This document shows positions 7,006-64,000 of a stretch of 64,000 bases of DNA, piece by piece. The position numbers were made by a program, and so were the translations under genes. Numbering within the stretch: the first letter of the stretch is position 1; each line of letters opens with the position of its first letter. The stretch covers positions 42,284,001 through 42,348,000 of the forward strand of contig OZ024757.1 in NCBI GenBank assembly GCA_964016885.1. Direction: 5' to 3'. Under the pieces are notes generated by a model. That model ran no database searches. It worked only from the letters and a program-made list of their open reading frames with translations, and had not been told where the DNA came from. Origin of the DNA: Eledone cirrhosa (taxonomy: Eukaryota).

Positions 7006-7139
7006 TGTGTTTGTGTGTGTGTGAGAGAGTATGTATCTGAACATGTGTGCATATGACCATGTGTGTTTTAAGATTTTTTTCCATTGCTTCATTGACGTCA
7101 AGAAATTTGTTAACCAAAACTTGGCACCAAAATACTTAC

Positions 7140-7412
7140 AGAACTGAGGTTATTCTTTGCAATCTTGAAAACTCTTAAAGTTTTCAACTTCTTCCCCAGC
7201 GATTGTGGAATATGTTCGATCTGGTTCCCAGTTAAGTTGAGGACTTGCAGACGACAGAGAGAGTCCAAACCTTCAATTCTTTGAATGAAGTTAAATGAAA
7301 GGTTTATCTCCAAAAGGTGGCTCAACTTGTCAAGTTTTTCTATTTTTTCAATGAGGTTTCCTCCGAGATTGAGGACTTGCAGGTTTTTTAGGGAATCCAA
7401 GTTTTCAATGTA
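7140..7412 (-). CDS. CNTRL: Centriolin coding exon 3 (SDS22-type leucine-rich repeats)
   Basis: ccacag acceptor, gtaagt donor; 273 nt; YIENLDSLKNLQVLNLGGNLIEKIEKLDKL...IEHIPQSLGKKLKTLRVFKIAKNNLSS. Confidence 0.95.
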
Positions 7413-7550
7413 CTGTGGATTAGATGAAGATTTGAGGCAGGTTTGACATGATGATGATGATGAAGATGATGACGATGGTAATGATGATGACGATGATGAC
7501 AATAGTGATGCCAATGATGATGATGATGATGATGACAATTAAATACGTAC

Positions 7551-19307: not shown

Positions 19308-19652
19308 GGAAAATTTAAAATATATAAATATCGATAAAAAGAAAACAACAACAATGGTGGATGTTTTGTTTGTTGCTGTTGTTGTTGTTGTTGTTGTTTA
19401 GTTTTTGGTAGTGGGATTAGAGTAATAATTGTTTGATTTGTTGGCCACAAGGGCCAGAGGTTAGAGAAATGTTATGCAAGCAATGACTGACCCATACTAA
19501 CTTGATTATACTCTATAGGAAAGTAGCAATAGTAGACAATAGTCAATGAATAGGGCAGTATGTATGTGTGGCTATATATATATATATATATATATACATA
19601 CACACACATATACATACATATATATATAGACATACATACAGATATATAAATC

Positions 19653-20872
19653 ATGGAATAGCTTAGATAGGGCTAGACATAAGATAGGGAAGGCCACATC
19701 ATGGTACGACAACCAGAGATATCAGAGTGTCATGTTTGTGGACGCCACCCCTGGAGGGAAATTAGCTAACCAGTGTAGAAAGGCCCTGAGAAAGACCCAC
19801 TTAAAAATAAAGGTGGTAGAAAAGCCAAGAACCACCATAAAATCCCTGATCAGCAAAACCTACCCTTTTAAGAAAACCCACTGTACCAATAGGAAATGTA
19901 TCATATGTAAGGTGAACCCCCGGATAAACTGTAAAACTAGAAACGTAGTCTATAGCATAAGATGTACAGAGGGTACTTGCAGAAACATGACAACAACATA
20001 AATAGGCGAGACAGCTCGTAGCATAGGTGAAAGGATAGACCAACACTGGGGGGAACTAAAAGGACGAAAAAACGGGTCAGTACTATACGAACATGCTAGA
20101 CAACAACATGACGGTAACATAGACAACATAGAAATTAGAATAATATCTAAACATAGGAATGACCCAGCAGATAGGCAAATCAGAGAGGCCAGTGAAATAG
20201 AAATTAGAAGACCAAAGCTAAACAGAAAGAATGAGTGGAACAACAACAACACCCAAACAAACAACACTGACCTAAGAGAAGTATAAATAAGTAAATAAAA
20301 TAAAATAAAATAAAAGAAAATAAGATAAATAAATACATACAGAAGCACAATAACAACAAGCACATAAACACACACTAGTCACCCAACAGACACAACACTA
20401 TACACACTAGTCACACAGCACACATAACACTATACACACACGCAAACGCATGCGCAAAGAAGACAAAATAAAATAAACAAACAAGCAAATAAATAAATAA
20501 ATATATAGACAGACTGAATAAAAAATGGCATAGACATACAACACAACAGGAGGAAATATAACACCACTGACGATGTTGCAGATGTGCAACGAAAGATTTA
20601 TGTAAATTATGTAAACTATATATATATGTGTTTGTGTCTATATTGTATCTGTATTATTTTTGACCGTCGGTCAGTCAATGGCAACATTGAGGACCGAGTA
20701 AGTTAGATCGCAGATATAAAAGACAGCGAGAAGCGAAAACCAACCAAACAGTGAGTGTGTTCTGTTATTAATTCTGGCAATATTACGCAAATATGACCCT
20801 CCCCAAGTATAACAATATCTGTTTCGACACACGATTTCATATAAAAAACCTCGCTAAACTAATTCATTGCCG
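19653..20872 (+). mobile_element. Penelope-like element 3' remnant (GIY-YIG endonuclease + pseudo-LTR)
   Basis: SVMFVDATPGGKL, CxxxxCxxC linker, NVVYSIRC...[Y->stop]IGETARSIGERIDQH...RQIREA...PKLN; stop at 20284-20286; downstream pLTR recurs at 52580 and 58143-58605. Confidence 0.88.
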
Positions 20873-26774: not shown

Positions 26775-31238
<4,464 letters not shown>

Positions 31239-31351
31239 TAAGAGGAATTCCAACTTTGTCTGATTTACTCGTTTTATTTACAATCCTTTAAAATTTATAA
31301 AGGTATTATAATGAAATAGTATGATGGAATATTAAATATTAAGTGTTAATT

Positions 31352-31388
31352 GAACAAGTACTTTCATGCTTTTGCAATCTTCAGGTTC
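31352..31388 (-). ncRNA. Minimal hammerhead ribozyme (left arm of palindrome)
   Basis: GAAC-CUGAAGA-uUGC-aaaa-GCAu-GAAA-GUAC-UU^GUUC. Confidence 0.65.
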
Positions 31389-31481
31389 ATAATGTGTGGT
31401 GACAGTCAAGTTTGCAATTTTCAACTGTCTATATTGAAAATATAGTTGAAAATTGCAAACTTGACTGTCACCACACATTAC

Positions 31482-31518
31482 GAACCTGAAGATTGTGAAA
31501 GCATGAAAGTACTTGTTC
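31482..31518 (+). ncRNA. Minimal hammerhead ribozyme (right arm of palindrome; weaker stem II)
   Basis: GAAC-CUGAAGA-uUGU-gaaa-GCAu-GAAA-GUAC-UU^GUUC. Confidence 0.6.
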
Positions 31519-31774
31519 AATTAACACTTAACATTTAATATTCTATCATACTATTTCATTATAATACCATTATAAATTTTAAAGGATTGTAAATAAAACG
31601 AGTAAATCAGACAAAGTTGGAATTCCTCTTATTAATATAATCTTCTATACCCAATCATACACACCCGTGTATATTTATCTATCTCTCTCTCTATATATAT
31701 ATAAACATATATATATATACATATATATATGTACATATATATATATACACATATATATATACATATATACATAT

Positions 31775-34700
31775 TTGCCTTTCAATATGATGGATGGACT
31801 AAGGAATTCTGGAGAGTCTGAAAAATCTGGACACTCAGTGACAATGCCAAAGATAAAGACAAATTCACCCAATGCTGCCGGACGAAAAGGCAAGGACTCC
31901 TCCTCTTTGTTTCGGCCGCGGATGGCCAACATAACCCCAACCCCATCCCCATCACCCCACTCTTGCCACCCACCAAACGCAATCCAAAACTTCAGAGTTG
32001 GTACCATGAATGTAGGCACCTTAAAAGGTCATTCTAACGAGGTTGTAGAAATGCTTGAACGTAAGGAGGTTGATGTTTGCTGTATCCAAGAGACCAGGTG
32101 GAGGGGTGGGTTTGCTAGATTCATTGTGGGTAAAAAACGATGCAATAAGCTTTTCTGAGTGGGAAATGATAATGGGCTGGGTGGGGTAGGAATAATGTTA
32201 GCAGAAAAATGGGTAGATAAGATAATAGACGTAAATAGAGTGAACGACAGAATAATTAAAATAAGACTTGTCCTAAATAGAACTACTGTGACAATAATAT
32301 CCACTTATGCACCCCAATCTGGACTGCCTGGCGCTATAAAAGACAGATTCTATGAGATATTGATGCTCACTACCTCCCAAGTAACTGTCAGTGACTACAT
32401 AATTATTGCTGGCGACCTAACTGGTCACGTGTGACGGCTATGACGGAATCCATGGAGGCTATGGGTTTGGTTCTAGAAAGGAGGAAGGCTTCAGAATCCT
32501 GGAATTCTGTGACGCAAATAACCTAACTATCTGTAACACTAACTTAAAAAAACAAGAGAATCACTTGATCACCTATAGATCAGGGGAACACGCCAGGCAG
32601 ATAGATTATATCCTTACCAGAAGACATGATAGAGTGTCTGTTGTATACACTAAATCCCTCCCCCATGAAGAATGCACCTCCCAACATAGACTCAGTCAGT
32701 GACCTCATAGTCAGGACAAGACGTACTCGACAACAGAGGGGGACTATCCTCAGGAGAAAAATATGGACCCCACAGCCAGAAATAAATTTAAAAGCATATT
32801 ACTTGATGCTTTTGACAGTAAGGAAGAGCAATTAGAGTCGTACAATATAGAGGAACAGTGGGTATTCCTGACAGCTAACCTGCTGAAGGCGGCAGATGAA
32901 GTCTGTGGCTGGAGCAGGCCTATAGGCAGGAGGAGAGTAACGTGGTGGTGGAACAGTAAGGTGGAGGAGTCAATTAAGGCCAAAAAGCAGGCTTGGAAAG
33001 TATGGCGGGAGAGGGGAAGTAGAGAAAACTATCAAGTGGCCAGGAGGGAAGCTAGGAGACAAGTGTACTTCGCAAGAAGGGAAGCAGAGGAAAGAAAGTT
33101 CAAGCATGTTCTACAACGCGAGGACCAAAAACGTGAGGTGTTAAGGATTGCTAGGCAATGTGTCAAGGAAAACTGTGATATTGTCGGGGAGAAGTGTGTC
33201 TTGAATGATGATGGTGTACTTGCCATCACTGACACTGGTAAGAAGGTAGCTTAGAAGTGTCACTACGAAAGGCTACTAAATGAGGAGAATAAATGGGAGA
33301 AAGACAGTCTCCCCCACATCGATCCAATAGAGGGACCAGCAGTGCGAGTTGAAGGTAGTATAATAAGTAAGGCAATCAAAGATATGAAGACGGGTAAGGC
33401 GGCCGGGCCTTCGGAAATAGTTGCTGAAATGCTGAAAGCATCTGGAACGGTGGGACACACTATGGTCACCCGGATAGTAAACCAAGTCATACAGAATGGG
33501 GCCGTTCCGATGGACTGGCGTAGCAGCATCATCATTAACTGCTACAAGGGTAAAGGAGATGCTCTTGATAGGAGTAACTATTGAGGCATTAAATTAATCG
33601 ATCAGGTCATGAAGGTCACAGAAAAAGTAATAGCGCAACTAATCAGAGAGTGAATTGATCTAGATGAAATTCAGTTCGGGTTTGTGTCAGGCAAAAGTAC
33701 CACAGACGCTCTTTTCATTGTGCGACAACTACAGGAGAAGTACCTAGCTAAAAGTAAACCCCTATACTTAGCTTTTGTTGACTTGGAGAAAGCCTTTGAC
33801 AGAGTCCCCCGCTCCATTATCTGGTGGGCTCTTAGAAAACTAGGTGTTGATGAATGGCTTGTGAGAGCTATACAAGCCATGGATAAAGAAACAGTCAGCA
33901 AGGTTAGAATTAACAACGAATATAGTGAAGAGTTTAGCGTAAAAGTTGGTGTGCATCAGGGCTCCGTTCTTAGCCCCCTACTATTTATTATTGCCGTTCA
34001 GGCTATAACAGAGGAGTTCAAGACCGGCTGCCCATGGGAACACCTATACGCAAATGATCTAATGCTCATAGCTGAATCAATGGCTGAACTAGAGAAGAAA
34101 TTCCAAACATGGAACCATGGCCTAGAATCAAAAGGCCTTAAAATTAACCTATCTAAGACTAAAGTTCTAGTTTATAGGAAGGAAAATAGGGCACCGGTCC
34201 CATCTGGGAAATGGCCATGCTCAGTGTGTAGGAAAGGAGTTAGCAGAAACTCCATTTTATGTCCCAAATGCAAAGTATGGATGCATAAAAGATATAGTGG
34301 GATCACAGGTAAGCTAATTAAGAATATAGATTTTATATGTGGACGGTGCTCAGGTACAATAATTAGCAGCAAGTGCCCACAGAATACTAGCTCATTCCAT
34401 TGCACAGATGGTTCTATAGAAATAGTGGACACCTTCCGTTACCTGGGTGACAAAATCAGCAGTAGTGGAGGGTGCTCTGAAAGTACAGTAGCTAGAGTCA
34501 GAACGGGATGGAAAAAGTTCAGAGAGCTTATACCACTATTGGCCGCTAAAGGGTTCTCTCTAAAAATGAAAGGCAGGCTGTATGATGCCTGCATACGAAC
34601 AGCAATGTTGCATGGCAGTGAGACATGGGCATTGTGTGCAGAGGATATACGCAGACTGGAGAGGAACGAAGCTTGCATGCTCCGCTGGATGTGTAATAGT

Positions 34701-35335
34701 AATATACGTGAACGGCAAAGCATAAACGAACTAAGGGAAAAATTAGAAATAAGAGGGATCAGATGTTGTCTATTCGAGAGAAGACTACGTTGGTATGGTC
34801 ACGTGATGCGCATGTAAGACGACAGCTGTATAAAAAAGTGCAGGGCAATAAAAATAGACGGTAGCCTCGGAGTAGGCAGACCCAGAAAAACGTGGGACGA
34901 CTTGATAAATTTCGACCTCACACACTTACACCTCTCCAAGACAATGTCACTGGACCGAGATCTTTGGCGCTACACAGTAATAGAGAAGACCCGCCTTACC
35001 TAAGTGCAAAGTGAAACCTACTACAGTCAGTAGGCACCTCTAACAAAATACACCCCCGTCCCACTACCCCCACCCCATCCACACCACCCCTTTCAATGTA
35101 AAGTTACGTTGGTACCACAACATCCAGCCCAAAACAAATGAGGTCGTGTAGGTGTCACGACAAAAACACACACAGTCCACGCTGTAATGTGGCTGGTGGT
35201 AGGAAGGGCATCCAGCTGTAGAAAACCCGCCAGACAGTCCTATGCGAGCAAGTCAACCACTCTTGCCTCAAGTGGGAAAACTCCCGTCCAAACCCATGCA
35301 AGCGTGAAAGATGGACGTTAAATGATGATGATGAT
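31775..35335 (+). mobile_element. Near-full-length decayed RTE-clade LINE (APE + RT, (TGA)n tail)
   Basis: APE motifs TMNVGTL, IQETRW, YAPQ, AGDLTGHV; RT motifs FVDLEKAFDRV, GVHQGSVLSPLLF, YAND (mutated YADD); stops at 32156, 33252, 33582 and 34815 plus frameshifts; ends GGACGTTAAATGATGATGATGAT. Confidence 0.93.
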
Positions 35336-35627: not shown

Positions 35628-37156
35628 ATAAACGTTTGTATTTGTAAAGCCAAGAGAATGCAGGTATGGACATAGAATAAAGAATGCAAATGCAAAAGAT
35701 ATTGTTGACAATTCGTCTTTTACCTTAGATTTATTTAAATGTCCTTAATTTTCGAGATAATATCTCTTCTTCGGAGAGAAGTAAAACGGTTAAACCAGTG
35801 TTCTAAACAGCTTGCCAAGTCATACTGACAGGAAATGGTATAGTGTATCTGTTTTATCTCTAATGTCAAAGAGTTAAGGTTAGGTGGATAAAGAGTAGTC
35901 TCCCTTTAAAAGGGTTTTTTTTTTTGTACATGCCTGTTTAAGTGTGTGGGAGAATGTGTGAAGGTGTATGTGTGTTCGTGTGTGAGTGTGAGAGGTATGT
36001 CTATACGTAAATGTGGAGGATAGATTTTCTCTCGCGCTAGAACTGGTATTGTGTGTGTGTGAGAGAGATTAAGTGGAGGTGTAAGCGTGTGTGTGGGGTG
36101 TGTGTAAATATGGGGCTAGAAGCTCTAGCAAGTTATAAATTGGGTGTTGAGTTCTAGTCTATTATTGATTGGTGGTTGTGTTTTGTCTATAATTAATGCT
36201 TCCTTAATTCTAAGATTGCCGAGGTTTTTTCCTTAGTTTCTATCCTAACTGTTATGGTTTTGTCGGTGTTTTTGCATTTCCCTCGGTGTTTCGTAAATGA
36301 GGAAGCGTTAGTATTGAGGTGTTCTTTTATTCTTATCTGGAGTGGTCTGGTGCTGCTACCTACGTAGAAGTTGGTGCATTTGTCGCACTCTAGTCTGTAT
36401 ACGACGTAAGCCTGGTGGCATAGGTCTGTGTCGTTGATGAGGCAGTTGGCTAGCCTGCAGCGGTTGTCATGTCTGGTGGAGTGTCTTTTGGTTAGTTGTC
36501 CGCGTAGAGAAGGACCTGAGTGGGCCAGTTGGATATCTAGTCCCTCTAGTCGGATAGCTCTGCGGATGACAGTTGTTGTTTCGTCACTGAGGTGTGGGAG
36601 CTTCAGGAAGCAAGTGTTAGTGCCTCAGGTGTGGTGTCCTCTGTTCTTTCTGGCACGGTTTGTGGTGGATGTCGTGTATCCGTTCAGTTTGAGAACTTCC
36701 AGGAAATGTGTGGTGTGTGTGTCTCGGTCTCTAGCGTCAGTGCATTTGTTCCGGATATGTGTTAGTTCGTTCCTTATGTATCCGAACTTAGCGCCGGCTG
36801 GGAGGGCTGATCTGAAATGTACGAACAGGTCCCTGCTGGTGGCTTTTTTATAGAAACAGGTGTGGATGTTGCCTTCCTCTGTTACCCTGAGTTGGAAGTC
36901 CAGTAAGGAAAGGGGTCCGCGGTCATCGGGGTGTTCCATGCTATTTAGAACACTGGTTTAACCGCTTTACTTCCCTTCGAAGAAGAGATATTATCTCGAA
37001 AATTAAGGACATTTAAATAAATCTAAGGTAAAAGACTAATTGTCAACAATATCATTTGCATTCTTTATTCTATGTCCATACCTGCATTGTCTTGGCTTTA
37101 CAAATACAAACGTTTATACTTCATTACACAATGCTTCAAGTGAACTATAACTTCCT

Positions 37157-56440: not shown

Positions 56441-56541
56441 CTTGAAGCCACGATGTAGAATTAAGACTATGTAACAGAAAACAAAACGTAGCAGCAAAAG
56501 ACGGAGAAAGTCATCACCAAAAAACTGCATAAAGGAATGAT
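56441..56541 (-). CDS. SCAI: SCAI exon
   Basis: ctccag acceptor, gtgaac donor; 101 nt, phase 1/0; DHSFMQFFGDDFLRLLLLRFVFC. Confidence 0.94.
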
Positions 56542-56608
56542 CTGGAGAGAAAAACAGAGAAATATGTCAGATTCTATGAAAGGATTATTAGTTTTATAGA
56601 ATTCAAAT

Positions 56609-56781
56609 GACATGGCATGGTGTCGTAGAGGCATTATATTGACATATGGCATGGTGTCGTAGAGGCATTATATTGACATATGGCATGGTGTCGTAGAGGC
56701 ATTATATTGACATATGGCATGGTGTCGTAGAGGCATTATATTGACATATGGCATGCTGTCGTAGAGGCATTATATTGACAT
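56609..56781. repeat. 34-bp minisatellite (5 units) in a SCAI intron
   Basis: Unit GACATATGGCATGGTGTCGTAGAGGCATTATATT, head-to-tail with no spacers. Confidence 0.95.
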
Positions 56782-57526
56782 ACAATGTTTATAGGGTATT
56801 TTTAAACTTGGTGGAGCCCATCTCCTCTCCAGGTCTGAATACAGCAGATTTCTTCCAGAGAAAGATAGATAGTGAAAGAGAGGAAATGACAAAGATATAG
56901 AGGAAGAATTGACCCCAGTACTTTACTGGTACTTTTTTTATTGACCTCGAAGGATCAAAGGCAAAGTTGACCTCGGCAGGATTTGAACTCAGAGAGCCAG
57001 AACAAATACCACAAAGCATTCTATCCAACGTTCTAATAACTCTGCCAATTCACCGCCTTAGAACAGATATAAACACGAGAGAACTCATTGCTAGAACAGC
57101 TGTTAAAACAGCTAAATGTTGTCAATGACAGCGATGGGCAAAAATGCCTCAGAGATCAGAGACCAGCGGCCAGTGGTCAACAGAGAGACAATCCACAAGG
57201 TGGGTGAGAGGCAGATGATATATATAATGCCTCAGAGGTCAGAGACTAACAGCCAGTGGTCAACAGAGAGACAATCCACATGATGGGTGACGGGCAAATA
57301 GTTCTGCTTGGCTGGTCAGGTTTGGGAATCCAGCCGGATCAGTTGGAGATGGTTGCTTCTGACAAGACCCGATGTAAGGAGTGTTTGAGGACTCTGTCCC
57401 CACGACCCTCTCAGGAGTATGTGGGCAAAGAAGAAGGTTTTGTATTATACAGAATCAGGGATTGGCTTTAAGTAGTTTAGTACAAAAAAGGGTTTAGCAA
57501 AGGATAAAGGGCAGAGGTATGATTAC

Positions 57527-57700
57527 CTAATTTCCTTGAACGAGTAAATAACTTGGATGCTTCTGACATAAACTTATCTACATGGCTCTGGCACTTGTCC
57601 CAGGTAGTTATAGGAATGTCCCCTATGTTGCATACATAGCAAAATGCCATTAGGGGACAGTGTAAGAAGAGAGTAAACAGGTTGCCCTTCAGATGTTGGT
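57527..57700 (-). CDS. SCAI: SCAI exon
   Basis: ttacag acceptor, gtaatc donor; 174 nt, phase 1/1; DQHLKGNLFTLFLHCPLMAF...WDKCQ. Confidence 0.94.
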
Positions 57701-57893
57701 CTGTAAAAGAAGAAACAAAATAAGTATACAATTAAGATATCATAGTTTGCTGGAAACTGTAGGAAATAGTGTTAATATAATCTATATATAAATTTGAGCA
57801 ACTTCCATCCGTCTGTCACTCAATGTGTGTATGTGTATATGAATGTAAGTGTGTGTTGTAAAAGGAAGGAAGGGGATGGTAAAAAAAACTAAC

Positions 57894-57966
57894 CTTGCAT
57901 TGTTGATGGTAACTGCTCAGGGGACAGAAGGCAGACAAGCGGTTGACCAAAAAGATTAGGAAAACA
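57894..57966 (-). CDS. SCAI: SCAI exon
   Basis: ttccag acceptor, gttagt donor; 73 nt, phase 0/1; CFPNLFGQPLVCLLSPEQLPSTMQ. Confidence 0.94.
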
Positions 57967-58142
57967 CTGGAAAATAGATATAAACACATCACATAATTAA
58001 ATTTTGTTTTCGAATGTCTTCTAAATATAACATATTTCATTGGTATATATATATAAATTTATATATATATATAAATTTATATATAATAACCCTTGCGAGC
58101 AGGGAAGAACGGACGATGATGATGATGAATGACGGCGAAGAA

Positions 58143-58603
58143 TTTGTTTTGCAAGGTTTTTGATATGAAATCGTGTGTCGAAACAAATATTGTTATACTT
58201 GGGGAGGGTCATATTGTTGTAATAATATTGCCAGAATTAATAACAGAACACACTCACTGTTTGGTTGGTTTTCACTTCTGTATCTTTTATGTCAGTTAAT
58301 TTATTCGGTCCTCAATGTTTACCATTGACTGACCAATGGTCAAAAATACAGATACGATATAGACACAAACACATATATAGTCTAACAAAGTTCTTTCGTT
58401 GCACATCTGCAACATCGTCAGTGGTGCTATTATGTTTCCTCCTGTTGTATTGTATATCTACGCCATCTTTATGTGAAAACCAACCAAACAGTGAGTGTGT
58501 TCTGTTATTAATTCTGGCAATATTATGACAACAATATGACCCTCTCCAAGTATAACAATATTTGTTTTGACACACGATTTCATATAAAAAACCTCGCAAA
58601 ACA

Positions 58604-58605
<2 letters not shown>
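58143..58605 (-). mobile_element. Solo Penelope pLTR with inverted partial copy (arms about 133 bp) in a SCAI intron
   Basis: Reverse complement of about 20520-20865; 58143-58275 versus 58473-58605 inverted. Confidence 0.85.
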
Positions 58606-58657
<52 letters not shown>

Positions 58658-59111
58658 CATAATATATATATATATATATTATGTATGTATATAAATATAC
58701 ATATATTAGAAAATGAGTTGTTTTTTTTTAAATGAAAAAAAAAAAAGATATCCTACACGAGTGAAAGTATAAGGAAAAAAGATGAAATCGAAAATGCAAC
58801 TGGAGTCTTTTTAAGAATATTTATTTGGTTCCTTTACCGGTTTCGCAGTTCTTGTGCTTTTCAAAAGTAGAATTGAGATGGAGGGTCTGTGGTTTTTCTC
58901 GCATATAATGTTATATATATAGCATTAAGAAAGATGGTGTTTACATAAAGCATTTAAGAAGAAGAAGATGATGATGATGATGATGATGGTAATGATAGTG
59001 GTGGTAGTAATTGTAGCAATGGTGATGGTAGTAGTGGTGGTAATGGTAGTAGTGGTGGTAGTAGTGGTGGTAGTAGTGGTAGTAGTAGTGGTGGTAATGG
59101 TGTATACATAC

Positions 59112-59193
59112 CTGAAATGCGGAACTATTATCACTATCGCAGATGAGGAATAATGGCTTTCTTGTGTAAGGATACAGATCACCTGGATGTAGA
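59112..59193 (-). CDS. SCAI: SCAI exon
   Basis: ttccag acceptor, gtatgt donor; 82 nt, phase 2/0; LHPGDLYPYTRKPLFLICDSDNSSAFQ. Confidence 0.95.
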
Positions 59194-59245
59194 CTGGAAT
59201 TAAAATGGTAAAACAGGTAATTAGTATCAGGTAACATATGTAATT

Positions 59246-59430
59246 AATTGTTTCCACTTTAGGCACAAGGCCAGCAATTACCCAGTGCATTACTGGTACT
59301 TTATTTTATCGACCCCGTAAGGATGAAAGGCAAAGTCAACCTCGGCGGGATTTGAACTCAGATCGTAAAGGGACGTAACTATGCTGGAAAGCATGGCGTC
59401 CGACCCTCTACCGATACTGCCAATCCACCG
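59246..59430 (-). mobile_element. SINE family A, full length
   Basis: Match to family consensus. Confidence 0.88.
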
Positions 59431-60400
59431 TTTGTAATTAATATGTAATTAATGAACATAATTAATATGTAATTAATGAACATAAGACATGTATTTAGAA
59501 TAAAATGGCCAGATTTCTTATAACTGAAAGGATATCAGGACACTATCCTTCAAAACTTCCATGCTTCCCAAAATTTGCCAACACTACACCTGATATTCCC
59601 CTTCCATACACACACATGTATGTGTATATGTGTGTGTCTGAGTGTCTGTGTGTGTCTGCGTGTCTGTGTGTATCATGATTCATACAATTTAAAGATGTTT
59701 TTTTAGGAACTTTCAATGTTTTCAAGTTTTTATAGGTTTTTGCCGTCTGAAGAGCTCAGGCTGTCTTAACTGATAGTCCTCACTGAAATATGTATAACAG
59801 AGTTTTAAATAAACCTGAGTCAACTGAATATGGCCTCAGATCTTTTAATAATATATCTATATATATATATCTATATATCTCTATATCTATATCTATATAT
59901 CTATATATATATAGTAATAATAATAAATGTGAAGACTAAAATCCAAAGAGGCTTGATAAGGATAATATATATCAAATATATAAAAACCATAGAGCAAATA
60001 TTTATTAAAATAACAGATTAAAGTTTAAGCAAAGAATCACTGCTTTTACCCTTAATACATATATAACCCATGCTAGCGTGGAAGATAGACGTTAATCGAT
60101 GATGATTATCATTATCATTATCATCATTTAATGGCTATTTTTCCCTGCTGGCATGGGATAGACGAGTTATCCTGTTGTGAGCAATGCCAGGTCAGGTGAC
60201 CATGTCCTGCTCATCCTTGTATTATTGATGGATTGAGAAAGAGTACTCAATACCGAAATAGGATTTAAACATTCATTTATTATGGCTAAGTGGTGAGCCT
60301 TGTTACTCTAGATTTTCACCTGAGCATTCACAAAGACAATGAGAGAAGTGTAGGACAAAATATTCTAATTTATGGTGTAAGAAAAACCACGGTGCCTTAC

Positions 60401-60497
60401 CAATGCATTTCTTTCAAACTACCAGGTCTTTTATTTTTATTTAAAATGTCCCCTTCTCGCCGACTGTTGGTAACCACACCTCCAAGGTCATAGGCAG
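60401..60497 (-). CDS. SCAI: SCAI exon
   Basis: tttcag acceptor, gtaagg donor; 97 nt, phase 1/2; AYDLGGVVTNSRREGDILNKNKRPGSLKEMHC. Confidence 0.93.
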
Positions 60498-60553
60498 CTG
60501 AAATATAGGGAAAAGAGTCTTGTGAAGATTGTCTGGGTTAGTCCCTTTTATTT

Positions 60554-60591
60554 TCCTCGGAAGAAGAGATTTTAATCTCGAAATATCAGGA
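60554..60591 (+). ncRNA. Minimal hammerhead-like motif with core variant CGGAAGA in a solo pLTR (SCAI intron, antisense to the gene)
   Basis: UCCU-CGGAAGA-aGAGAU-uuua-AUCUC-GAAA-ua-UC^AGGA; related copies at 35743-35777 (-) and 36974-37008 (+). Confidence 0.5.
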
Positions 60592-61363
60592 CATATAAAT
60601 ATATTAAGGTCAAACACTTAACACCTTGTTTCACCCTTTGTTTATTTCACATTGTTGTGGCTTTCAAACTTCAAACTTTATCATTGTGATAGTTGTAGGA
60701 GCCTAAATGTTCAAACTAGCAATGTATATATTAATTGAAGAAACTCTGCAGAAATTTATAAATCATCAACATTATTTAGAGTTGTTTCATTGCCATATTT
60801 TTAATGAAAGAAAAATAACTGTGTTTAATAAATTTTGAAAATAACCCAAAATCTGGAGGAATTTCTTTATTAAGCTGATATTTAAAACATCACAAAATTT
60901 CTAAAATAAACTTTTGATAGAAGGTTTTAATATAAGGATAAACATTTTAAAACGATCAGTTTTGTATCATAAATCTAGGGCATTTTCAGGTGGTTTTCTA
61001 TCAAAAGTCCACTTTCAATACTAACCAGGGTTTACAAACACATTTTTTTAAATGATGCCACAACAAAATGCACTTGGCCTACACTGTAAAGTGGTAGTAC
61101 TGAAGCACATATCATAGCACCTTGTAAAGTGGTTGTGCTGGTGCCATGATAAATGCACCCAGTTCACCCTGTAAAGTGGTTGTGCTGGTGCCATGATAAA
61201 TGCACCCAGTTCACCCTGTAAAGTGGTAGTACTTGTGCCACTATAAATAAAACACTCAGTCCATTCTGTAAAGAAGCGGTGCTGATGCCATGAATGAACA
61301 CACATACACAGAGAAAAAACCCAACAACAACAACAACAGCAACAGTAGTAGAGTAAAACTTAC

Positions 61364-61544
61364 CATCATCTGTGTGTTTGGAATTTCCATAGCAACCGTC
61401 AGCAGATATATACAAGAGAAGGGCTCCGTTTGGAGGAAGTTCTTTAAAACCTGAAGCTAAAAATGTATTCAGTTGACTGAACGTAGGTTTGTAGAGCAGG
61501 TACTTGTGTGGGTTATCTCTTCGTATAGAACGGTCACCATTTTC
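61364..61544 (-). CDS. SCAI: SCAI exon
   Basis: tttaag acceptor, gtaagt donor; 181 nt, phase 0/1; RRDNPHKYLLYKPTFSQLNTFLASGFKELPPNGALLLYISADG. Confidence 0.96.
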
Positions 61545-62687
61545 CTTAAAAGATAAATAAGAAACACCAATAATTAACCTTTCAATCATCATCATCACTG
61601 TTTAATGTCCATTTTTCCATGCTTGCATGGGTCAGACAGGTCGTCCGTGTTAGGAGACAAATCCGACGAGGACTGTAAATTTGGCCAGGGATCTTACAGC
61701 TGGATGCCCTTCCTAACACACACACATGGACTTTATATAAGGAAAATACACAGAGACAATCAACTGACGAGATATTAATTTAGACAATGAAAATAACGAA
61801 CTCAGTAATTCTATAAAATAGATTGATTACTCAGAAATGCTAACGATATGAAAAACTATAGTTAAGCTACTGTTGACATTTAATGCAAGGGACATCAAAA
61901 AGCTGATTAGAAATAATTATGTGGTGAGGAAAAGACAACATCAGCTGAATTCCTAAAATTCATTTTCATAATTTTGGCAAATAGGGGAGATAATTCCAGA
62001 CCTTTCTGTCTTATTATACTTCCTTAGCGAAGTATAGACTTCACTGTTCTTATTTGAAGTAGAGATGAGAGAATTTCTAAGTAGATATAACAATATTGTA
62101 CATTGATAGATGTGGAAAATGTTCCAACAACTTATAATTCATAAAATTCTATTTGTTTTCTATTAATTAAATAAATGGCAGCAAAATTATCAGAAAATAA
62201 TGTTGTTACATGTTTAATGGGTGACATAGTCAATATTTAATTTGATGTTTGTTTGCATTAAAACTGGAATGTGTGTGTGTGATGGCAGTCACTACAGAAT
62301 GTTGTACATGATAAAGTTATTTCCCTTACATATCACACAACACTCTTTTAAAGAGAAGTTAAAATATAAAGATCAAAAACAAAAATAACAACATTTAAAA
62401 GAATTATACAGCTAGATGTCAAATACAGCTAGATGTCATTCCTAATACCTTCCACTTTATAGTGTATTTGGTGCATATTATTATGATTCCAATACTAGAG
62501 AGGTTGTTATGCCATTGACAAGACTAAACAACCCTCTCCAGCCAACATTGTCTCTATTCCACATCACAAACTAACTCTTGTACTTTATTTTATACATGTA
62601 CTTATGATAGTATAGAAATTTATTTCTATAAGTTAAAAAATGCAGCTTAACCCTTAAAGAAGAAAAATAAAGTGATGTGCTACTCAC

Positions 62688-62810
62688 AAATGGTTGTCTC
62701 CCTGGGGCAGGTGACGTGTCATATAGTTGTGTTGTTAAATCTTCCTGTGGCTCTCTCTCTAATGTTTGTAGCATTCGAAACATATCGAGAGTTAATTCAC
62801 TAAATTTCAC
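62688..62810 (-). CDS. SCAI: SCAI exon
   Basis: tttcag acceptor, gtgagt donor; 123 nt; VKFSELTLDMFRMLQTLEREP. Confidence 0.96.
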
Positions 62811-62964
62811 CTGAAAATACAAAACAATACAGAATTTGTCACATTTAATTCAATTCAAGTTTATTGTTATTTTTATAGTTATGTGAACATTCTCCTTACA
62901 ACATCAACATCAACATCCTCATCCTCATAATAATAATAATCCTCATAATAATAATAATAATAAT

Positions 62965-63075
62965 AATTGTTTCTACTTTAGGCACAAGGCCAGCAATTAC
63001 CCAGTGCATTACTGGTACTTTATTTTATCGACCCCGTAAGGATGAAAGGCAAAGTCAACCTCGGCGGGATTTGAA
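62965..63075 (-). mobile_element. SINE family A, 5'-truncated
   Basis: Match to family consensus. Confidence 0.85.
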
Positions 63076-63102
63076 TAATAATAACAGAAACAATGTACTT
63101 AC

Positions 63103-63255
63103 TTGTTCGTTACAATTTCCTACAATTAGAATCTCTTGGAGCGTTAAATATACTGGGGTACCTTTATCGAGAGGAGGGGTGTTGAGAGGGGTCAGACGAT
63201 GGGACAAGACAATAGAAGAAGAGTCAACATCCACGACACTTATTATATTATCAGC
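63103..63255 (-). CDS. SCAI: SCAI exon
   Basis: ttacag acceptor, gtaagt donor; 153 nt; ADNIISVVDV...LTLQEILIVGNCNEQ. Confidence 0.94.
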
Positions 63256-63524
63256 CTGTAAAGAAACACAAGAAAACCAATAAGTACTCAATAGGGGCTT
63301 AACCCTTTAGTATTTACATTACTCTATATTTACTATTAGATTTTTACAGTAAAGGCTTTACCTTACATAATATCGAAACTATGGGATTTTGATATTATTT
63401 ATTTTGAGAAAAATATTATAACATAAGCATGAGCAGCCAGTTATGGCGAGTTTGAACAGAAGGTGGTGAGAGAATTCTGGCTGGATATGACTGGTTTGAA
63501 CAGAAAGGGGTTGGCCATTGATAC

Positions 63525-63715
63525 GAAAGGGGGTGTGTTGCTGCTGCTCTTATTTGTGCTTCACCTCTTGCTGTGGGTTCATCTGGGATCTTGGTCAGTA
63601 GAATGTAGAGATGTCTCTTGAAAACATCTACATGCACACCATGTAGATCTCTCAGATTTTTTTGGCAGCTTATTAAAAAGCTAGGGTCCATTAAACCCCA
63701 GACTATTGCAGTATG
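63525..63715 (-). mobile_element. CR1-group LINE 3' fragment (related fragment at about 26090-26250 -)
   Basis: LRDLHGVHVDVFKRHL..LLTKIPDEPT resembles the C-terminus of the 22-23 kb LINE ([16 protein letters not shown]). Confidence 0.6.
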
Positions 63716-63722
63716 TGGTCTT

Positions 63723-63785
<63 letters not shown>

Positions 63786-63862
63786 TTGACAATATGATTT
63801 GGTAAATAAAATTTAGTAAGATTGAATGAAAAATTTTTTTTTTTAAATACTAAAGTTTTTAC

Positions 63863-63961
63863 CTCAATAAAGGATTTGATTTCCCCTAAAACTAGATTCC
63901 ATTCCATCTGATCATCTGGTTCATAAGTGGTGGTATAGTCATCTATTTGTTTGGCTAATTC
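63863..63961 (-). CDS. SCAI: SCAI exon (upstream exons lie beyond window end)
   Basis: tttcag acceptor, gtaaaa donor; 99 nt; ELAKQIDDYTTTYEPDDQMEWNLVLGEIKSFIE. Confidence 0.94.
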
Positions 63962-64000
63962 CTGAAATGAAACAACAGACAATAAATATTGGACTCATTG

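What the first reader, a model, noticed from the sequence alone, without database searches (positions are those of the whole stretch)
31231..31639. 409-bp palindrome encoding a minimal hammerhead on each strand
Seen: 196-bp arms. Each reads outward as GAAC-CUGAAGA-stem II-GAAA-GUAC-UU^GUUC, with a 4-bp stem I and a palindromic AGUACU stem III. Known: this is the dimer-dependent minimal architecture of PLE ribozymes. Inference: a transcript from either strand would hold one ribozyme plus its own antisense, so cleavage would compete with a ~200-bp duplex. Substitutions between the arms argue against a read artefact. Stem II opens with a U-U pair, so activity is uncertain.
Basis: partly seen in the sequence, partly recalled or inferred. 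Interest (0 to 1): 0.75.

Follow-up and report, generated by a model that had tools for sequence, protein, structure and literature searches.

The report
Mirror-image Penelope insertion with hammerhead ribozyme
This DNA palindrome is two back-to-back copies of the front end of an abundant Penelope-type jumping gene, likely written into both sides of one DNA cut; sister copies that stop at the ribozyme's predicted cut site suggest that this self-cutting RNA likely does cut in living cells.

Summary
The palindrome and both hammerhead motifs are real. The feature extends to about 31686, because one arm carries a 45-base tail. Each arm is the first 200-250 bases of the likely transcript of an autonomous Penelope-like element (PLE). 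I found the full-length parent in the same genome: TATA box 31 bases upstream, ORF1, then RT plus GIY-YIG. The junction differs between loci, so the palindrome is likely built anew at each insertion into (TA)n. Of 152 classed head-to-head pairs, 131 join one short end to one tailed end. Either arm can reach further 5' (23 vs 23), which argues for priming from both target ends rather than fold-back. This architecture is in print, and this scan has noted the double-priming reading on other DNA. Not found in the papers searched: a second class of 141 shorter palindromes. In 34 of 50 examined, the longer arm starts within 2-3 bases of the predicted ribozyme cut, a likely fossil of in-vivo cleavage despite the family-wide U-U pair. 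The window's copy is a promoterless stub whose ribozymes would be locked in the hairpin.

The parts
31231..31428 (-). Short arm: PLE 5' leader from position +1 (likely transcription start, window 31428) to the short 3' end, which runs into (TA)n
31429..31443 (.). Copy-specific junction filler; holds an 8-base piece of the leader's own 5' end, as templated insertions do
   Evidence: sequence; junctions of other copies differ
31444..31639 (+). Long arm, part shared with the short arm (leader positions +3 to about +200)
31640..31686 (+). About 45-base tail, on this arm only; in the parent it continues through a short TA/TC run into ORF1
31482..31518 (+). Minimal type I hammerhead motif; predicted cut 31514/31515; U-U at the base of stem II; palindromic 6-base stem III
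31352..31388 (-). Mirror-image hammerhead motif; predicted cut 31356/31355
27507..31230 (.). TA-rich array on the left: target side of the short arm
31687..31774 (.). (CT)n then (TA)n on the right: target side of the tailed arm; an unrelated LINE follows

Best explanation
The palindrome is two head-to-head DNA copies of the 5' leader of an autonomous Penelope-like retrotransposon, likely made in one insertion event by priming reverse transcription from both ends of a cut (TA)n target and then likely joined by microhomology-type end joining. Shown: the arms equal the parent's leader; they start at one fixed position 31 bases behind a TATA box; they end at two fixed points, short and tailed; pairs are nearly always short plus tailed; junctions are locus-specific. 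Inferred: +1 is the transcription start; the two 3' ends are two RT start sites near the front of the RNA; each cDNA runs to the RNA's 5' end; both usually come from one RNA, or from two RNAs of one source held in one particle. When the hammerhead (cut between leader +73 and +74) has likely cut the template first, both cDNAs stop there and give the shorter palindrome class. The window's copy came from an uncut template, has no promoter, and would give only a ~196-bp RNA hairpin if read through.
For: Parent: full-length copy L126 has pLTR-ORF1-ORF2-pLTR-tail, and ORF2 hits GIY-YIG and RT. Fixed start: 3,593 exact 24-base matches at the leader start, 1,747 of them with a non-parental base in front. 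In the first 30 loci of each class, 29, 5 and 30 stop at +1, about 57% overall by my arithmetic. TATA lies at -31 in two subfamilies. Ends: 131 of 152 classed pairs are short+tailed, 16 tailed+tailed, 5 short+short, 7 more unclassed; in loci picked only by pattern, 63 of 68, p 4e-14. Built anew: 51 different junction strings among 94. Not fold-back: in 131 short+tailed pairs the short arm reaches further 5' in 23, the tailed arm in 23, and they are equal in 85. One source: arms of a pair disagree at 73 of 965 subfamily sites against 49% expected if independent. Cut class: 141 palindromes; the further arm starts at +72 to +77 in 34 of 50, against 12.5% under a uniform null. In 14 of the first 30 matches there is a true break at exactly +74, 9 of them with no inverted partner at the joint, against 3 of 30 true truncations at control +82. 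Only 2 of 64 arms that start at +1 have a partner starting at +63 to +82. In vitro, the Anolis PLE protein nicks and extends both strands, starts at two sites that bound the tail, and is predicted to be a dimer (PMC11167929).
Against: No transcript start, cleavage or insertion intermediate was observed; all steps are read from genomic copies. For the 85 equal-length pairs, including the window's, fold-back cannot be excluded copy by copy. Nine of 64 arms carry only a 17-33-base inverted stub, which looks like local snap-back. A cap-derived G at +1 was not supported. Raw genome counts show no excess at the cut site (79 vs 103 at the control); the excess appears only after classing 30 loci of each. 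The bases right after the cut form a short imperfect inverted repeat (+73 to +85) that explains about 22 of the 50 exact joins and could draw junctions there. The uniform null is crude. The U-U pair departs from the G10.1-C11.1 pair called highly conserved in PMC4209133. PMC11167929 found no reads ending at the Anolis cut site and no need for cleavage in vitro. About 8-12% of pairs (my arithmetic) look copied from two different templates, so 'one RNA' is not universal.
Confidence: 0.8

Rival explanations
1. Self-priming (fold-back): one cDNA starts at the tailed end, reaches the RNA end, folds back and copies itself to the short end. Arkhipova et al. 2013 read PLE palindromes as self-priming, on an antisense template.
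For: It explains short+tailed pairing and shared variants in one step. Inverted stubs of 17-33 bases exist. It is proposed in PMC3846280 (passages).
Against: It requires the short arm to lie within the tailed arm, yet the short arm reaches further in 23 of 46 unequal pairs, by up to 2.8 kb. Six of 161 pairs differ at 3 or more subfamily sites. The commonest junctions would need a 1-base loop. Arms stop at a sense-strand start behind a TATA box.
Confidence: 0.12
2. The palindrome is a non-autonomous element (MITE-like or hairpin retroposon) that moves as a unit.
For: Many full-length look-alikes at 91-96% identity; a few junction strings recur (21 and 14 of 94).
Against: Junctions are mostly unique (42 of 94 seen once). 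The recurring ones follow from a 4-of-5 microhomology at the leader's first bases, and loci sharing a 3-base junction fall on more than one subfamily haplotype. Arm lengths form a continuum up to full-length elements. There is no promoter inside.
Confidence: 0.04
3. For the short class only: arms stop near +74 because RT stalls at the folded or protein-bound hammerhead, because a second start site lies there, or because the local inverted repeat attracts end joining; no RNA cleavage occurs.
For: Imperfect inverted repeat at +73 to +85; starts spread from +72 to +78; U-U pair; very weak fold; raw counts 79 vs 103.
Against: The perfect 8-base palindrome just upstream of the cut centres only 1 of 50 junctions. 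Twelve of 18 junctions with filler also start at +72 to +77. Nine breaks at exactly +74 have no inverted partner. Most copies read straight through the ribozyme to +1.
Confidence: 0.3
4. The palindrome is a functional switch in which ribozyme cleavage competes with a long duplex.
For: Run X4 shows A>G and T>C differences on the arm that the genomic-type run lacks, a hint that family hairpins are transcribed and edited.
Against: The antisense arm always comes first; -295 vs -4 kcal/mol; no partner ribozyme in the same sense; the copy has drifted neutrally (CpG decay in both stems II).
Confidence: 0.03

Closest known systems
Insertions of endonuclease-bearing Penelope-like elements with an inverted 5'-truncated pLTR and a one-sided tail (PMC3846280 passages; PMC8557442 passages; PMC2377424 passages)
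   Same: Head-to-head inverted copy, partial tandem pLTRs, tail at one end, (TA)n targets, C-terminal GIY-YIG; promoter in the upstream 3' part of the pLTR
   Different: Here more than half of the arms stop at one TATA-linked start, giving ORF-less palindromes by the hundreds. The tail is about 45-50 bases. The data favour two-ended priming on a sense RNA over the self-priming on an antisense template proposed in PMC3846280.
Minimal hammerheads of metazoan PLEs (Cervera and de la Pena 2014, PMC4209133; results and discussion read)
   Same: Type I core, 4-5 bp stem I, palindromic stem III; the paper already reports dual motifs 100-700 bp apart on opposite strands in Schistosoma
   Different: Short stem II (3 pairs plus tetraloop) with U-U in place of G10.1-C11.1; genomic copies that end at the predicted cut
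Anolis Poseidon element PAc in vitro (Frangieh et al. 2024, PMC11167929; main text read)
   Same: Two internal RT start sites bounding the tail; both strands cut and extended; AT-rich target; mostly uncut template
   Different: Here the start sites lie upstream of ORF1 in TA-like sequence that resembles the target. The parent has a linker zinc finger (Neptune/Nematis type) and two overlapping ORFs. A cut-site class of insertions exists, whereas PAc RNA reads showed no ends at the cut.
Animal non-LTR retrozymes (PMC7229834 passages; bioRxiv 10.64898/2026.07.22.740005 first part and passages)
   Same: ORF-less hammerhead-bearing PLE derivatives
   Different: Retrozymes are head-to-tail tandem units; this is a head-to-head pair of leaders with no tandem unit

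Membership tests
Endonuclease-bearing Penelope-like element (parent) | RT followed by a C-terminal GIY-YIG endonuclease | tested here: met
   ORF2 of L126, 775 aa: GIY-YIG 27.9 bits (cut-off 22.6); RVT_1 E 2.9e-6, 27.6 bits, just under its cut-off of 29.6
Endonuclease-bearing Penelope-like element (parent) | CCHH motif with two cysteines between GIY and YIG | tested here: met
   Read by eye in the translation against the description in PMC8557442
Endonuclease-bearing Penelope-like element (parent) | Partial tandem forming pLTRs, inverted 5'-truncated copy, one-sided tail | tested here: met
Neptune/Nematis clades | CX2-5CxxC linker upstream of GIY-YIG | tested here: met
   C-x4-C-x2-C in ORF2; motif as defined in PMC8557442
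Neptune/Nematis clades | Placement in an RT phylogeny | not tested
   No named reference sequences were at hand; no tree was built
Minimal PLE hammerhead | CUGAnGA and GAAA core, NUH site, stem I of 4-5 bp | tested here: met
Minimal PLE hammerhead | Palindromic stem III or loop 3 for dimer formation | tested here: met
   Six-base palindrome; two-molecule fold pairs through it for the minus arm and the young copy, not for the plus arm
Minimal PLE hammerhead | G10.1-C11.1 pair | tested here: not met
   U-U in 262 of 269 motifs; no subfamily with the canonical pair among 70 variants
Minimal PLE hammerhead | Stem covariation | tested here: inconclusive
   Family too uniform
Minimal PLE hammerhead | Self-cleavage | not testable with these tools
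   Indirect only: arm starts pile up at the predicted cut
MITE or other unit-mobile palindrome | Same internal sequence and ends in dispersed copies | tested here: not met
   51 junction strings among 94; asymmetric ends
MITE or other unit-mobile palindrome | Target-site duplication | tested here: inconclusive
   Flanks are (TA)n, so a duplication cannot be read
Non-LTR retrozyme | Head-to-tail tandem units, each with a hammerhead | tested here: not met

The most novel reading that the evidence does not exclude
The genome holds a fossil record of in-vivo cleavage by a PLE hammerhead with a non-canonical U-U pair. A minority of template RNAs are cut before reverse transcription and both cDNAs of an insertion then stop at the cut. 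Because mixed pairs are rare yet about one pair in ten comes from two templates, the palindromic stem III may hold two RNAs together in one insertion particle, as a dimerisation signal, and cut both at once.
Probability: 0.45. Interest if true: 0.7.

Novelty: new member of a known kind. Interest (0 to 1): 0.5.

Why it matters
The locus itself is an ordinary dead PLE stub. The family bears on two open points. First, how PLEs make head-to-head repeats and one-sided tails: the copies favour two-ended priming at two start sites on a sense RNA over the published self-priming reading. Second, whether PLE hammerheads cut in vivo: PMC4209133 notes the lack of in vivo evidence, and PMC11167929 found no reads at the cut site. 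The short palindrome class names an exact base to test. Hundreds of such hairpins would also be a source of double-stranded RNA for editing.

Tried and rejected
Cap-derived G at +1: rejected; G precedes only 358 of 1,747 non-T starts and mostly comes from the other arm. Rfam: no match for the arm at E up to 10; the whole-window scan was swamped by microsatellite hits and 113 of 263 rows were not listed. Whole-window repeat search was swamped by TA arrays. Expression: no RNA holder listed; the kinds of runs X1-X6 are not on record. Runs X5 and X6 (other organisms) gave 1 and 4 contigs only, too few for covariation. Fused ORF1-RT proteins: none among longer proteins, weak evidence. No solved structure matches ORF2. 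Target-site duplications are unreadable in (TA)n. Literature searches that found nothing relevant: Penelope + twin priming (3 listings); Penelope + retrotranspos + ribosomal frameshift (3 listings); Penelope-like + retrotransposition + mechanism + cryo-EM from 2024 (0); Penelope + hammerhead + cleavage site + truncated copies (0). Not held and not read: Lunse et al. 2016 (PMC5785218) and Arkhipova et al. 2017 (PMC5850863); either could already describe U-U variants or ends at the cut. No supplements were read; those of PMC4209133 and PMC11167929 may bear on these points. Whether the locus is intronic was not settled: the last SCAI coding exon found ends at window 56447 and an LRR exon lies at 7110-7445, both on the minus strand.

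Full report
Observation. The arms 31231-31426 and 31444-31639 are complementary at 190 of 196 positions around a 17-base spacer, and each carries the hammerhead boxes reading outward. The motif is not chance: 0 of 20,000 shuffles of the arm match a minimal-hammerhead descriptor, which finds 3 places in the whole window. The fold alone is weak, -3 to -4 kcal/mol and no better than shuffles, while the full hairpin folds at about -295 kcal/mol on either strand. Rfam has no match for the arm. The window lies in a 3.0-Gb animal genome; no call named the organism.

It is a dispersed family with an asymmetric unit. A search of the genome gave 1,602 candidates, and all 40 scored loci match the whole 409 bases on both strands. 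Their flanks show that one arm nearly always continues into a conserved tail of about 45 bases, while the other runs directly into (TA)n. In the window the tail is 31640-~31686. Below I number the leader from +1, the base at which arms start. The short end is near +200 and the tailed end near +250.

The parent is an autonomous Penelope-like element. Some copies continue upstream of +1 into RT and GIY-YIG sequence, and others continue downstream of the tail into a long ORF. Locus L126 holds a full copy: pLTR, ORF1 of 449 aa starting at +283, an overlapping ORF2 frame of 775 aa, then pLTR with tail and (TA)n. ORF2 hits GIY-YIG above its cut-off and RVT_1 just below it. By eye it has the CCHH motif and the CX4CxxC linker that PMC8557442 gives for Neptune and Nematis elements; no tree was built. 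A TATA box lies 31 bases upstream of +1 in both the younger and older subfamily, with CCAAT-type boxes further up. Exact 24-base matches at the leader start number 3,593: 358 after G, 1,846 after the parental T, 1,389 after A or C. Of the first 30 loci of each class, 29, 5 and 30 stop at +1. Scaled by hand, this is about 57% of arms. I infer that +1 is the transcription start. A cap-derived G was looked for and not supported.

Each palindrome is likely built at its own insertion. Among 94 leader-start junctions there are 51 different strings, 42 seen once. The commonest (21) is what a 4-of-5 microhomology between two leader starts would give. Many fillers are short copies of the leader's own first bases, which is typical of polymerase-theta end joining (recalled, not from a call). 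Head-to-head pairs range from stubs to two full-length elements, often with 1-7 overlapping bases. Of 159 distinct pairs, 131 are short+tailed, 16 tailed+tailed, 5 short+short and 7 unclassed. Among loci picked only by pattern it is 63 of 68 classed, against 34 expected (p 4e-14); some of the other loci were picked by similarity or by hand. In short+tailed pairs the short arm reaches more than 20 bases further 5' in 23, the tailed arm in 23, and they are about equal in 85. Fold-back of a single cDNA cannot give a short arm that holds sequence missing from the tailed arm. The two arms nevertheless share their source: over 161 pairs they disagree at 73 of 965 subfamily-diagnostic sites (7.6%), against 49% if independent and a 2.0% background at invariant sites. 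Six pairs differ at three or more such sites. By my arithmetic about 8-12% of pairs come from two templates.

Mechanism. Shown: identity with the parent leader, fixed start, two fixed ends, the pairing rule, variable junctions, (TA)n flanks. Inferred: the element's protein cuts both strands of (TA)n, primes one cDNA at the short site and one at the tailed site near the front of the RNA, both run to the RNA's 5' end, and end joining fuses them. This matches the Anolis PLE in vitro, which cuts and extends both strands, starts at two sites bounding the tail and is predicted to be dimeric (PMC11167929). PMC3846280 instead read such palindromes as self-priming on an antisense template. The inverted copy and one-sided tail are standard PLE features (PMC8557442), and opposite-strand hammerhead pairs 100-700 bp apart were reported in Schistosoma (PMC4209133). 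Earlier notes of this scan reached the double-priming reading on other DNA; my reading was written down before I looked.

The ribozyme. The U-U at the base of stem II is a family trait, present in 262 of 269 motifs in the fetched loci (overlapping loci may be counted twice). The 70 genomic copies with another base at 11.1 are scattered point changes in the same family. The family majority has a 5-bp stem I and a GAAA loop. The window's arms have each lost the CpG in stem II in a different way. Covariation cannot be tested in so uniform a family.

A likely footprint of cleavage. The predicted cut lies between +73 and +74. Raw counts of a non-parental base before +74 and before a control position +82 are 79 and 103, so there is no raw excess. 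Among the first 30 of each, the script flagged 15 and 11 as breaks. On inspection, 14 of the first set are true breaks at +74 (13 loci; one flag was a point change); 9 have no inverted partner at the joint and 5 have a partner starting at +72 to +75. Of the 11 control breaks, 5 are joins to a partner that starts at the cut, 3 are internal deletions and 3 are true truncations. A search for palindromes with at most 60 bases between anchors at +93 found 141. In the 50 listed, the further-reaching arm starts at +72 to +77 in 34 and at +78 in 6. It starts upstream of +72 in 4 by the script, plus 2 that the script mis-read because of small deletions. A uniform null expects 12.5% and 73%. These short palindromes are also short+tailed in 42 of 45 classed. 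Mixed pairs are rare: of 64 arms starting at +1 (a few are the two arms of one locus), 45 have a partner from +12 or earlier, 2 from +63 to +82, 7 from elsewhere and 10 none. Against a cleavage reading: an imperfect inverted repeat at +73 to +85 explains about 22 of the 50 exact joins, and a stall at the ribozyme or a second start site would look similar. But the perfect 8-base palindrome just upstream of the cut centres only 1 of the 50 junctions, and 12 of 18 junctions with filler also start at +72 to +77. I put cleavage at about 0.65. I found no such report in the searches; two key papers were not held. One earlier scan note on another genome found stubs starting at the ribozyme's front edge instead.

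What the window's copy does. It has no promoter. From either direction the antisense arm is made first, so the ribozyme would emerge into its complement and has no same-sense partner for a dimer. It is likely inert except as a hairpin in read-through RNA. A hint of such RNA: in run X4 (kind not on record, another sample of the same organism label), 12 differences reach 2% while staying under 0.5% in run X2. Eleven of them are A>G or T>C, against 24% among rare genomic changes (p 1e-6). This resembles A-to-I editing on both strands of the family, but there is no matched DNA, the data are contigs, and it cannot be tied to this locus.

Verdict. A new member of a known kind: an ordinary PLE insertion stub, whose family gives a clear test of how PLE palindromes form and a likely genomic record of hammerhead cleavage in vivo. 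Interest 0.5.

Noticed in passing
L126:3356-3446 (G000:C3, parent element): ORF1 and ORF2 overlap by 91 bases with ORF2 in the -1 frame. A U-UUU-UUA heptamer in the ORF1 frame sits near the start of the overlap in 29 of 30 copies that span it (2 further matches were truncated). No strong hairpin follows (-3.4 kcal/mol). A frameshift after ORF1 in some PLEs is already in the Fig. 1 legend of PMC8557442.
   Followed up: partly
L302/L303, L286, L293: An arm starting at exactly +74 is preceded, in the same orientation, by an internal ORF piece; in L302/L303 this repeats as a tandem. It looks like RT leaving a cut 5' end and jumping back onto the same RNA.
   Followed up: no
L141, L145, L150, L196, L199, L201, L218, L219, L221: An inverted stub of only 17-33 bases precedes an arm starting at +1; several end near an internal inverted repeat at +21 to +27. 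Unexplained; possibly local snap-back.
   Followed up: no
window 20567 (+) and 58421 (-): Two copies of another hammerhead-like family (CUGACGA core, longer stem II with a G-C first pair after a bulged U). The 20567 copy lies downstream of a PLE-like ORF remnant at 19630-20001. The 58421 copy is joined head to head with a piece of its own 3' part.
   Followed up: partly
window 21649 (-): A third match to the minimal hammerhead descriptor.
   Followed up: no
window 36193-36624 (-): GIY-YIG remnant of another PLE family.
   Followed up: no
window 56447-63964 (-) and 7110-7445 (-): SCAI exons and a leucine-rich-repeat exon that resembles centriolin from memory. The palindrome lies about 24 kb from each.
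   Followed up: partly
window 31775-34817 (+): A broken LINE with RT directly right of the tail's TA run.
   Followed up: no
window 31508 (run X4): One of the A>G differences (7% in X4, about 0.01% in X2) falls on the last A of the ribozyme's GAAA box.
   Followed up: no
window 30676-30722: A short non-TA island inside the left TA array; a similar string appears at TA flanks of other loci, probably the end of another TA-targeting repeat.
   Followed up: no
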